From positions 81,843-145,842 of IMG/VR virus record IMGVR_UViG_3300035101_000015: a stretch of DNA of 64,000 nucleotides; one strand, written 5' to 3'. Every line of letters begins with the position of its first letter. The stretch's first letter is position 1. Of the stretch, positions 7,208-7,597 are shown in pieces. The notes beneath the pieces were generated by a model, which made no database searches, was not told the origin of the DNA, and saw only the letters and a list, made by a program, of their open reading frames with translations. The DNA comes from a virus (Duplodnaviria > Caudoviricetes). The position numbers and the translations under genes are program-made.

Positions 7208-7330
7208 TCCAGGGGTAGCTCAGTGGTTAGAGCTCTTTCCTCTCTGCAGCTACTTGTCTTCCAGACCGAAAGTGGAGAGTTTTCGTCTCACAAACGAGAG
7301 GTCGTTGGTTCGAGTCCAACCCCCTGGACC
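7208..7330 (+). ncRNA. tRNA-Y RNA chimera 1: tRNA body with Ro-binding module inserted in the anticodon arm (residual loop CUCACAA, anticodon CAC)
   Basis: Acceptor tccagggg/cccctgga, D arm tagctcagtggttagagc, T arm gttgg-ttcgagt-ccaac; insert ~7238-7284 contains ACTTGTC-ttcca-GACCGAA. Confidence 0.8.
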
Positions 7331-7334
7331 TCAT

Positions 7335-7462
7335 GGAGTGTGTAGCTCAATGGCAGAGCACGGTAAAATTTCCCTCTGCAACACTTGTCCACCCCCGGAC
7401 CGAAGTTGAGGGTTATCGGTTGCTAACCCCGGGGTTACGGGTTCGAGTCCCGTCGCACTCCC
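7335..7462 (+). ncRNA. tRNA-Y RNA chimera 2 (residual loop UUGCUAA, anticodon GCU)
   Basis: Acceptor ggagtgtg/cgcactcc, D arm tagctcaatggcagagc, T arm acggg-ttcgagt-cccgt; insert 7364-7417 has ACTTGTCC...GGACCGAA...GGGTTATC. Confidence 0.82.
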
Positions 7463-7466
7463 TCAT

Positions 7467-7597
7467 GGAACGTGTAGCTCAGCCAGGTAGAGCAGCGGTA
7501 TCCAGATTCCCTATGCAGAACTTGTCCGAGAGGACCGACGTATAGGGTTATCATTCAGCACCGCTGGTCACGGGTTCAAATCCCGTCGCGTTCCCCA
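7467..7597 (+). ncRNA. tRNA-Y RNA chimera 3, with encoded CCA (residual loop AUUCAGC, possible anticodon UCA)
   Basis: Acceptor ggaacgtg/cgcgttcc plus CCA, anticodon stem gcggt/accgc, T arm acggg-ttcaaat-cccgt; insert 7500-7552 has ACTTGTCC-gaga-GGACCGA...GGGTTATC. Confidence 0.82.

What the first reader, a model, noticed from the sequence alone, without database searches (positions are those of the whole stretch)
7234..7564. Deleting the Ro insert restores canonical anticodon arms (CAC, GCU, possibly UCA), so the module may be a removable intron-like element
Seen: removing 7238-7284 gives cttgt-CUCACAA-acgag (Val anticodon CAC, discriminator A). Removing 7364-7417 gives a perfect cgggg-UUGCUAA-ccccg (GCU). 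Removing 7500-7552 gives gcggt-AUUCAGC-accgc (UCA, would read UGA; weaker loop). The first two insertion points are identical (between positions 29 and 30), and each insert ends in TTATC/TTTTC. Inference: either the 7-nt loop is displayed in the unspliced RNA as bait for anticodon nucleases, or the insert is excised to give a tRNA plus a free or circular Y RNA, possibly gated by Ro60.
Basis: inference. Interest (0 to 1): 0.8.

Follow-up and report, generated by a model that had tools for sequence, protein, structure and literature searches.

The report
tRNA-shaped Y RNAs keeping anticodon loops
Three small RNA genes after a phage's Ro60 gene are complete tRNA shapes that carry the Ro60-docking helix as an extra arm beside a real-looking anticodon loop; this design is conserved in many bacteria and phages, and the arm looks like a permanent part, not a removable intron.

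Summary
Deleting 7238-7284, 7364-7417 and 7500-7552 turns the three units into cloverleaves that ARAGORN calls tRNA-Val(cac), tRNA-Ser(gct) and tRNA(tca).

The anticodon arms are not chance. In 91 related units from other genomes, the stretch after GGGUUAUC is a 2-bp stem plus a 7-nt loop:
- U33 in 91/91 and a purine at 37 in 90/91.
- Pair 31:39 covaries.
- 26 different triplets at positions 34-36.

The "intron" branch has no support:
- No bulge-helix-bulge (BHB) or group I features.
- No RtcB, splicing endonuclease or RNA ligase in the phage record.
- Unit 2 would be a tRNA-Ser without a long variable arm.
- Relatives keep one discriminator (C73) whatever the triplet.
- Loop-less paralogues sit in the same arrays.
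- A carrier genome already has ordinary tRNAs for the displayed triplets.
- YrlA-topology relatives, which have no "insert", carry the same mini hairpin.

Unit 3's "UCA loop" is not conserved in its closest orthologue.

RNA reads could not be consulted, so splicing is not excluded by experiment.

The scan had already found the tRNA-shaped Y RNA design on other DNA. I found no description of it in the papers I could search. New here is the family-wide, tRNA-like anticodon hairpin.

The parts
5234..7081 (+). Ro60/Rsr gene (the start codon is uncertain)
   Evidence: Pfam TROVE (8e-44) and vWA_Ro60 (4e-55). The closest homologues are 80% identical (metagenome). The next are about 52% identical, many named from Sorangium or Polyangiaceae.
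7109..7132 (+). G+C-rich hairpin (10 bp, UUCG loop) just after the rsr stop. It has no U tract.
   Evidence: Read from the sequence. The terminator scan did not call it.
7136..7202 (+). Small Y RNA of the ordinary layout, with its ends in the Ro-binding helix
   Evidence: Fold of -27.9 kcal/mol, z -3.6. Its own two strands pair far better than with any other strand of the locus (-27.3 against -14.6 or weaker).
7209..7328 (+). Unit 1: a tRNA-shaped Y RNA with a 7-bp acceptor stem, D and T arms, an AGGUC variable loop and discriminator A
   Evidence: CM R1 100.2 bits. Acceptor pairing is 7/7 within the unit and 3/7 with the next unit. Called tRNA-Val(cac) after the deletion.
7238..7284 (+).
   Evidence: Aligns with the Ro module of the relatives (alignment A1). 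Its own-strand duplex is the best of all combinations.
7285..7295 (+). Unit 1 distal anticodon stem-loop: G30 U31 / CUCACAA / A39 C40
   Evidence: It has the same register as the family hairpin.
7336..7461 (+). Unit 2: a tRNA-shaped Y RNA
   Evidence: CM R1 106.5 bits. Acceptor pairing 7/7. Called tRNA-Ser(gct), 73 nt and without a long variable arm, after the deletion.
7364..7417 (+). Unit 2 Ro60-binding arm, ending GGGUUAUC
7418..7428 (+). Unit 2 distal anticodon stem-loop: GG / UUGCUAA / CC
   Evidence: The loop is identical to ordinary tRNA-Ser(GCU) loops in the reference set.
7468..7597 (+). Unit 3: a tRNA-shaped Y RNA (7468-7594) followed by an encoded CCA (7595-7597)
   Evidence: Rfam tRNA 49 bits with a 58-nt insertion. 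CM R1 98 bits. An orthologue with the same acceptor stem lies in L334.
7500..7552 (+). Unit 3 Ro60-binding arm, capped by a GAGA tetraloop. It leaves the anticodon stem after position 31.
   Evidence: Fold of the unit -46.7 kcal/mol, z -3.5..
7553..7559 (+). It is not closed by its own pairs and is not conserved.
   Evidence: The L334 orthologue has GAUGCAAGGC here.
7598..7658 (+). A fourth Ro-type hairpin without a tRNA body
   Evidence: Fold. An orthologous element lies in L334 at 3386-3460.
7686..7734 (+). Long G+C-rich hairpin followed by a U-rich tail, the likely end of the transcription unit
   Evidence: Read from the sequence. The simple scan did not call it because the loop exceeds 8 nt.

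Best explanation
Units 1-3 are not interrupted tRNA genes. They are Y RNAs built as whole class I tRNAs.

Anatomy:
- The Ro60-binding helix is closed by a small loop instead of by the RNA ends. It is a permanent extra arm that leaves the 5' strand of the anticodon stem, between positions 29 and 30 in units 1 and 2 and after 31 in unit 3.
- In units 1 and 2 the rest of the anticodon arm survives as a short helix (30:40, 31:39) with a 7-nt U33/R37 loop.
- The RNA is therefore a three-way junction of tRNA body, Ro arm and anticodon hairpin.

Shown here: the anatomy, its conservation and its covariation.

Inferred:
- The array is transcribed with or just after rsr.
- It is cut into single units like a tRNA array, by RNase P at the 7-bp acceptor stems, 3' trimming and CCA addition.
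- Each unit binds one Ro60 through the arm.
- Each unit offers an almost perfect tRNA look-alike, anticodon loop included, to tRNA-recognising factors.

The purpose I think most likely is competition with, or sensing of, enzymes that act on anticodon loops (nucleases or modification enzymes). This last step is speculation.
For: The tRNA body is intact.
- Rfam's tRNA model spans unit 3 with a 58-nt insertion.
- ARAGORN calls all three units once the arm is removed.

The topology is the tRNA one.
- Acceptor pairing is 7/7 within each unit, against 3/7 and 5/7 between neighbouring units.
- Each Ro strand pairs best with the other strand of its own arm.
- In relatives the arm is mostly capped by GNRA tetraloops.

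The family is real and linked to Ro60.
- CM R1, built from alignment A1, finds 167 units at E<=1e-14 in 98 loci.
- Arrays of 3-6 units lie directly upstream of the TROVE gene in cyanobacteria.
- 12 of 151 sampled cyanobacterial genomes carry such units.
- Further carriers include Chloroflexota, Longimicrobium and Deinococcus lacus, plus large phage contigs (units confirmed).

The anticodon hairpin is conserved.
- 91 of 132 tRNA-topology units have exactly 19 nt between GGGUUAUC and the T stem.
- In those 91, U33 is 91/91, R37 is 90/91 and 30:40 is G:C in 90/91.
- Pair 31:39 is C:G 45, A:U 40, U:A 4 and G:C 1.
- After dereplication the picture is the same: U33 22/22 and 17 triplets in 22 units.
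- On the CM alignment, pair 31:39 is C:G 66, A:U 48 and U:A 19.

The arm looks permanent.
- Paralogues without any anticodon loop sit in the same arrays: 13 of 51 representatives.
- The same hairpin occurs in 23 of 44 YrlA-topology units and in the phage Bxz1 YrlA-type RNA, where no insert exists.
- The discriminator is C73 in 82/91 units whatever the triplet.
- Tolypothrix has ordinary tRNAs for the same triplets.
- The phage record has no RNA ligase or splicing endonuclease.

Precedent from papers.
- M. smegmatis YrlA is cut by RNase P and receives CCA in vivo (PMC4201824).
- Ro60 co-purifies with full-length Y RNAs (PMC4201824).
Against: - Transcript ends, processing and the absence of splicing are therefore inferred.
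- A 2-bp distal stem is not stable by nearest-neighbour rules, and MFE folds do not show it. Its reality rests on covariation and spacing.
- Unit 2 can also fold CGGUAA:UUAUCG.
- Ro60 binding was not tested.
- The third proximal pair (29:41) is unpaired in about a third of the relatives.
- The closest relative (L334) has only the unit 3 and hairpin 4 orthologues. Units 1 and 2 therefore have no close orthologues with which to test them directly.
Confidence: 0.7

Rival explanations
1. Intron-like element. The Ro arm is cut out and the halves are ligated. This would give working tRNA-Val(CAC), tRNA-Ser(GCU) and a UGA-reading tRNA, plus a free or circular mini Y RNA, perhaps under Ro60 control.
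For: - The deletions give clean cloverleaves.
- The insertion point 29/30 is the same in units 1 and 2 and in most relatives.
- Unit 1 has A73 and a CAC loop, as a tRNA-Val would (my recollection of ValRS identity elements; not tested).
- RtcB, a tRNA-splicing ligase elsewhere, is often encoded with rsr in bacteria (10.1101/312249; PMC7790460).
Against: - The insert is too short for a group I intron, gives no intron hit in Rfam and shows no bulge-helix-bulge (by inspection).
- The phage record has no RtcB, splicing endonuclease or Rnl2-type ligase.
- The unit 2 product lacks the long variable arm of bacterial tRNA-Ser (the requirement is from my knowledge).
- C73 is near-constant whatever the triplet.
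- Loop-less paralogues exist.
- The same hairpin occurs in YrlA-topology RNAs.
- The Tolypothrix genome checked holds ordinary tRNAs for the displayed triplets.
- No insert-free allele turned up in the fetched DNA.
- Unit 3's loop is not conserved.
Confidence: 0.05
2. Bait or decoy. This is a function laid on top of the best explanation: the displayed anticodon loops draw or block anticodon nucleases, and a panel of different triplets covers several target tRNAs.
For: - The loops copy ordinary tRNA loops. Many are identical to ordinary loops with the same triplet.
- N36-N37 coupling is tRNA-like: G36 goes with G37 in 31/33 units, and C36 or U36 with A37 in 48/49. After dereplication, all 5 G36 units have G37.
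- No two loop-bearing units of one array share a triplet: 0 of 34 pairs, although the bodies are about 79% identical.
- Hughes et al. proposed that YrlA might inhibit an anticodon nuclease competitively (PMC7790460).
Against: - Nothing here tests cleavage or binding.
- The triplets include some that bacteria do not use (AGG, ACC, ACU).
- The G36-G37 signal is dominated by one NGGGU group and by related Nostoc genomes.
- 0 of 34 shared triplets is only mildly unlikely by chance (my rough estimate is about 0.06).
- Most carriers are cyanobacterial chromosomes, not phages.
- Salmonella YrlA, which lacks the loop, was not cut by the DNA-damage-induced nuclease (PMC7790460).
Confidence: 0.2
3. Ordinary YrlA RNAs in tandem. 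Each RNA would start in one Ro arm, run through the T arm of unit k and the D arm of unit k+1, and end in the next Ro arm.
For: Rfam YrlA gives sub-threshold matches that span the unit junctions: 7429-7501 at 32.6 bits and 7298-7361 at 22.7 bits, against a gathering score of 69.
Against: - Acceptor strands pair 7/7 within units but 3/7 and 5/7 across junctions.
- The Ro strands prefer their own arm, for example -16.4 against -3.5 kcal/mol for unit 3.
- The arms are closed by 3-6-nt loops (a GNRA loop in unit 3).
- The 5' half of unit 1 and the 3' half of unit 3 would be left without partners.
Confidence: 0.04
4. The anticodon-like loops are inert leftovers of the tRNA gene from which the family arose.
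For: - Some units have lost the loop.
- Unit 3's loop region drifts between close relatives.
Against: - Invariant U33, R37 in 90/91 units, an exact 7-nt loop and four Watson-Crick pair types at 31:39, across units whose bodies have diverged to below 85% identity.
- The same hairpin is kept in both topologies.
Confidence: 0.1

Closest known systems
YrlA (Y RNA-like A; Rfam RF02553; Chen et al. 2014, PMC4201824; structure in Wang et al. 2018, 10.1101/312249)
   Same: - Encoded beside rsr on the same strand.
- Has a GNCGAA-type Ro60 motif.
- Its T arm, D arm, variable loop and tertiary-pair nucleotides match those of a tRNA.
- The Ro helix joins the tRNA-like body at the anticodon stem.
   Different: - The layout is a circular permutation: here the acceptor stem is open (7 bp plus discriminator) and the Ro helix is closed by a loop.
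- Units stand in a tRNA-like tandem array with 6-7-nt spacers.
- Units 1 and 2 keep a distal anticodon stem-loop, whereas S. Typhimurium YrlA 'lacks the anticodon loop' (10.1101/312249).
- They score far below the Rfam gathering score.
[quoted passage not shown]
   Same: The end product is a tRNA-like RNA with a free 7-bp acceptor end that still carries the Ro-binding module.
   Different: There the free end arises by cutting a closed acceptor loop, and the RNA becomes two pieces held together by the Ro helix. Here the gene encodes the open acceptor form directly, in one piece.
D. radiodurans Yrn1 (PMC4201824)
   Same: A Y RNA with a T arm and a possible anticodon arm.
   Different: In Yrn1 the Ro helix takes the place of the acceptor stem, the 'anticodon loop' has 6 nt and the D arm is doubtful. 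Here the Ro helix branches from the anticodon stem and the cloverleaf is complete.
Archaeal tRNA introns at non-canonical positions such as 29/30, and permuted tRNA genes of Cyanidioschyzon (recalled from memory; a lead only)
   Same: Extra sequence interrupts the anticodon stem at 29/30, and deleting it restores a tRNA.
   Different: Those introns need a bulge-helix-bulge motif and a splicing endonuclease. Neither is seen here (inspection).
Phage-encoded tRNAs thought to counter host anticodon nucleases (recalled from memory; a lead only)
   Same: A phage supplies tRNA-shaped RNAs whose anticodon loops matter in a conflict with the host.
   Different: Those are working tRNAs. These carry a Ro60 arm, and their relatives' bodies do not fit the displayed triplets.

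Membership tests
YrlA-type Y RNA (RF02553) | Encoded within a few kb of rsr/Ro60 on the same strand | tested here: met
   The units start 128 nt after the Ro60 stop, on the + strand. Cyanobacterial arrays abut the TROVE gene.
YrlA-type Y RNA (RF02553) | Ro60-binding motif GNCGAAN0-1G in a bulged helix | tested here: met
   GACCGAAAG, GACCGAAG and GACCGACG pair with ACUUGUC. These columns are invariant in A1. Helix 5 is 99% paired with covariation.
YrlA-type Y RNA (RF02553) | tRNA-like domain with D and T arms | tested here: met
   Rfam tRNA match. The YrlA model matches the T and D arms. ARAGORN cloverleaves.
YrlA-type Y RNA (RF02553) | RNA ends in the Ro helix and a closed acceptor stem-loop | tested here: not met
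   The acceptor stem is open and pairs 7/7 within each unit. The Ro helix is closed by a loop.
YrlA-type Y RNA (RF02553) | Reaches the Rfam gathering score (69 bits) | tested here: not met
   Best matches are 32.6 and 22.7 bits, and both lie across unit junctions.
YrlA-type Y RNA (RF02553) | Bound by Ro60/Rsr in the cell | not testable with these tools
   Needs immunoprecipitation.
Intron-containing tRNA gene | Removing the insert gives a canonical cloverleaf | tested here: met
   ARAGORN calls Val(cac), Ser(gct) and SeC(tca).
Intron-containing tRNA gene | A recognisable splicing signal: a group I core or a bulge-helix-bulge | tested here: not met
   The inserts are 47-54 nt. There is no intron family match in Rfam even at E<=10. 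By inspection, the end of exon 1 and the end of the insert are not complementary in a 4-bp helix flanked by 3-nt bulges.
Intron-containing tRNA gene | The spliced product fits the cognate synthetase and fills a decoding need | tested here: not met
   - 'Ser' lacks a long variable arm.
- C73 occurs in 82/91 relatives whatever the triplet.
- Ordinary tRNAs for the same triplets are present in Tolypothrix.
Intron-containing tRNA gene | Splicing enzymes at hand | tested here: inconclusive
   None in the phage record, which is estimated 78% complete. The host is unknown and may encode RtcB.
Intron-containing tRNA gene | Spliced RNA observed | not testable with these tools

The most novel reading that the evidence does not exclude
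Ro60 partner RNAs in many bacteria and phages are full tRNA replicas that show panels of genuine-looking anticodon loops, with a different triplet in each unit of an array. They would serve as Ro60-tethered baits or sensors for enzymes that attack or modify anticodon loops. That would link Ro60 surveillance directly to the tRNA-cleaving conflict systems.
Probability: 0.2. Interest if true: 0.8.

Novelty: new variant of a known kind. Interest (0 to 1): 0.62.

Why it matters
What the tRNA-like half of bacterial Y RNAs does is an open question. The published model RNA, Salmonella YrlA, has no anticodon loop, so the anticodon end has not figured in the models.

Here a large part of the family, in both layouts, keeps a proper anticodon hairpin. 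Its shape is conserved, its triplets differ from unit to unit, and its position-37 rule matches that of real tRNAs. This points experiments at anticodon-loop-binding factors: nucleases, modification enzymes, perhaps ribosomes or synthetases. It also supplies culturable carriers in which to test them, such as Scytonema hofmanni UTEX 2349, Tolypothrix tenuis PCC 7101 and Nostoc strains.

The work also warns annotators. These genes are not tRNAs with introns, and tandem copies can be mistaken for ordinary YrlA RNAs or discarded as tRNA dimers.

Tried and rejected
No reads could be laid.
- Close relatives by protein pattern: none in viral contigs and none in metagenome contigs.
- blastn of 7090-7720 against phage records: only short tRNA-arm matches.
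- First DNA pattern (ACTTGTC...GACCGA...GTTWTC): mostly chance matches inside genes. About 10 real cyanobacterial units were picked out by their flanks.
- Rfam at gathering score: only 'tRNA' for unit 3. YrlA is sub-threshold. No YrlA reached the gathering score in seven Ro60 phage loci.
- Ro60 neighbour P0003 (80% identity): the contig's gene layout was given but no DNA was available.
- Insert-free alleles of the three bodies: none in the fetched DNA.
- Papers: Sim et al. 2020 and Burroughs & Aravind 2016 are not held. Searches for a description of tRNA-topology Y RNAs, or of their anticodon loops, found none.
- The inter-unit (YrlA) reading and the inert-relic reading were considered and rejected; see the rival explanations.
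- MFE folding does not recover the 2-bp distal stem. I rely on covariation for it.

Full report
**Setting.** The window is part of a 145.8-kb virus record, estimated 78% complete.
- The ORF 5234-7081 is Ro60/Rsr, with TROVE and vWA_Ro60 domains.
- Its closest homologues are two metagenomic proteins at 80% identity. The next are about 52% identical, many named from Sorangium or Polyangiaceae. The host may therefore be a myxobacterium (inference).
- Downstream on the same strand lie, in order:
  - a G+C-rich hairpin (7109-7132);
  - a small Y RNA of ordinary layout (7136-7202);
  - three tandem tRNA-shaped units (7209-7328, 7336-7461, 7468-7594) separated by CCUCAUG-like spacers;
  - a fourth Ro-type hairpin without a tRNA body (7598-7658);
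  - a long hairpin with a U-rich tail.
- The whole record holds only five tRNA-shaped genes: these three and two odd tRNAs on the other strand.

**The observation.**
- Units 1 and 2 have three proximal anticodon-stem pairs. Then comes an insert that ends UUUUC or UUAUC. Then come two nucleotides that pair with positions 39-40 across a 7-nt loop (CUCACAA, UUGCUAA).
- Unit 3 has a contiguous 5-bp stem, the insert, and then AUUCAGC.
On the intact units it finds nothing in no-intron mode.

**What the insert is.** Each insert carries the two strands of the Ro60-binding helix of Y RNAs in swapped order: CUGCAnnnACUUGUC first, then a small loop, then GACCGAAnG...GAGGGUUAUC. The helix is therefore closed where ordinary Y RNAs have their ends.
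- Rfam's YrlA model matches only across unit junctions and far below threshold.
- In the window, acceptor strands pair 7/7 within units and 3/7 or 5/7 across junctions.
- Each Ro strand pairs best with its partner in the same insert.
- The units are therefore circular permutations of YrlA: the acceptor end is open and the Ro helix is closed.

**Relatives.** Two pattern scans and a covariance model (R1, built from alignment A1) found the same design widely.
- Arrays of 3-6 units lie directly upstream of the TROVE gene in cyanobacteria.
- 12 of 151 sampled cyanobacterial genomes carry such units.
- Units also occur in Chloroflexota, Longimicrobium, Deinococcus lacus and other lineages.
- They occur in large phage contigs too.
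- A phage contig with a 56%-identical Ro60 has a unit with GC-CUCAUAU-GC at the same place.
- All seven helices of the model are supported by covariation on 145 distinct sequences: 95.7% of cells are paired, against about 50% when partners are slid.
- The arm is usually capped by a GNRA tetraloop.

**Is the anticodon arm real?** I parsed 235 non-identical units by plain pattern rules, independently of the model.
- 132 have a strict tRNA topology.
- In 91 of those, the distance from GGGUUAUC to the T stem is exactly 19 nt. That equals 2 bp, a 7-nt loop, 3 bp and a 5-nt AGGUC-type variable loop.
- In those 91, U33 is invariant, position 37 is a purine in 90, and 30:40 is G:C in 90.
- Pair 31:39 is Watson-Crick in 90, with all four pair types.
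- Positions 34-36 show 26 different triplets.
- After dereplication at 85% identity the figures hold: U33 22/22, R37 21/22 and 17 triplets.
- Many loops are identical to ordinary tRNA loops with the same triplet.
- G36 goes with G37 and C36 or U36 with A37, as in real tRNAs. This signal is partly carried by one NGGGU group.
- Within arrays, no two loop-bearing units share a triplet (0 of 34 pairs), although their bodies are about 79% identical.
- Unit 3 is different. Its 7-nt stretch is not closed by its own pairs. The orthologous unit of the closest relative, which has the same acceptor stem, has an unrelated 10-nt linker there.

**Is the arm removed?** I could not look at RNA. The genomic evidence speaks against removal.
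- (i) The inserts are too short for group I introns. They give no intron match and do not form a bulge-helix-bulge (inspection).
- (ii) The phage record has no RtcB, tRNA-splicing endonuclease or Rnl2-type ligase.
- (iii) The 'tRNA-Ser' from unit 2 is 73 nt long, without a long variable arm.
- (iv) In relatives the discriminator is C in 82 of 91 units whatever the triplet. It fits the cognate expectation in 4. The bodies are paralogues, not a set of cognate tRNAs.
- (v) 13 of 51 representative units have a contiguous 5-bp stem and only 3-5 nt after GGGUUAUC, so no anticodon loop. They still share body and arm, and they sit in the same arrays.
- (vi) The same mini hairpin follows the Ro strand in 23 of 44 YrlA-topology units. 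It also does so in the actinophage Bxz1 and Cashline RNAs. In those RNAs the Ro helix is made by the RNA's own ends and nothing could be 'spliced out'.
- (vii) Tolypothrix tenuis PCC 7101 has 41 distinct anticodons among its ordinary dispersed tRNAs. They include Pro(UGG) and Cys(GCA), the triplets shown by its chimeric units.
- (viii) No insert-free allele was seen in the fetched DNA.

**How it most likely works.**
- Shown: a three-way junction of tRNA body, Ro arm and anticodon hairpin, conserved across phyla and linked to rsr.
- Inferred: maturation like a tRNA array. The 7-bp acceptor stems suit RNase P, and M. smegmatis YrlA is cut by RNase P and given CCA in vivo (PMC4201824). Unit 3 even has an encoded CCA.
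- Inferred: one Ro60 binds per arm.
- Inferred: a nearly perfect tRNA look-alike is presented to some tRNA-binding partner.
- Speculative: the partner acts on anticodon loops. Hughes et al. suggested that YrlA might competitively inhibit an anticodon nuclease (PMC7790460). A displayed and diversified loop would fit that idea better than the loop-less Salmonella RNA does.

**Comparison with what is known.**
- YrlA RNAs are known tRNA mimics. They are described as lacking a free CCA end and, for Salmonella, the anticodon loop (10.1101/312249).
- Chen et al. mention a less conserved stem-loop 'V' upstream of the T arm and equate it with the variable arm (PMC4201824). It may be the hairpin described here. 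In these units it is followed by three stem nucleotides and a normal AGGUC variable loop, so it sits at the anticodon position. I could not check their figure.
- I found no paper describing the open-acceptor layout or the anticodon hairpin. Two relevant reviews are not held.
- Earlier notes of this scan report the tRNA-shaped layout on other DNA several times. One left 'spliced or not' open.

**Verdict.** The 'displayed loop' branch is structurally supported, and the 'intron' branch is disfavoured (about 5%). This is a new variant of a known kind, and its value lies in making the function of the tRNA-like half of Y RNAs testable.

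Noticed in passing
window 8177-8329 (-) and 7745-8101 (-): Two tRNAs with 9-nt anticodon loops (ACUAAAGCC, CCUAAAGAA) lie upstream of a PTH2-like peptidyl-tRNA hydrolase ORF. The same Ro60-PTH2 neighbourhood is kept in the contig of the 80%-identical Ro60.
   Followed up: no
window 7595-7597: Unit 3 is the only unit followed by an encoded CCA. Units 1 and 2 are followed by CCU and CUC.
   Followed up: no
L124:7573-7698, L075:250-375, L134:7199-7324, L123:2235-2363: There is a second class of cyanobacterial units. 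The tRNA body joins the Ro helix through its 3' strand, so the lower Ro stem lies before and the upper 3' strand after. An anticodon-like hairpin, for example UCG-CUGUUAA-CGA, caps the helix.
   Followed up: partly
L148:2190-2330 (phage Bxz1) and L149:2200-2440 (phage Cashline): Actinophage YrlA-type RNAs upstream of Ro60 use CGGUUACC instead of GGGUUAUC. They also carry a 7-nt U33 loop right after it: AUUGCAA in Bxz1, and CUGCAAA and AUUUGGA in Cashline.
   Followed up: partly
L334:3250-3510: The closest relative (Ro60 80% identical) has only the orthologues of unit 3 and of the fourth hairpin after rsr. It has no small Y RNA, unit 1 or unit 2.
   Followed up: partly
L337 (G153:C1:3381600-3384100): Tolypothrix tenuis PCC 7101 has a dense cluster of about 28 tRNA genes with 24 distinct anticodons, in addition to a full dispersed set.
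   Followed up: no
window 2310-4933: An AAA_5 (MoxR-like) ORF and a DUF2201 VWA/metallopeptidase ORF lie just upstream of rsr. The 80%-identical relative keeps a 395-aa ORF (no Pfam hit) and the DUF2201 ORF in the same positions.
   Followed up: no
L335:5290-5700: In a phage contig with a 56%-identical Ro60, three small ordinary-layout Y RNAs and one tRNA-shaped unit follow rsr. Many ordinary tRNA genes lie further on.
   Followed up: no
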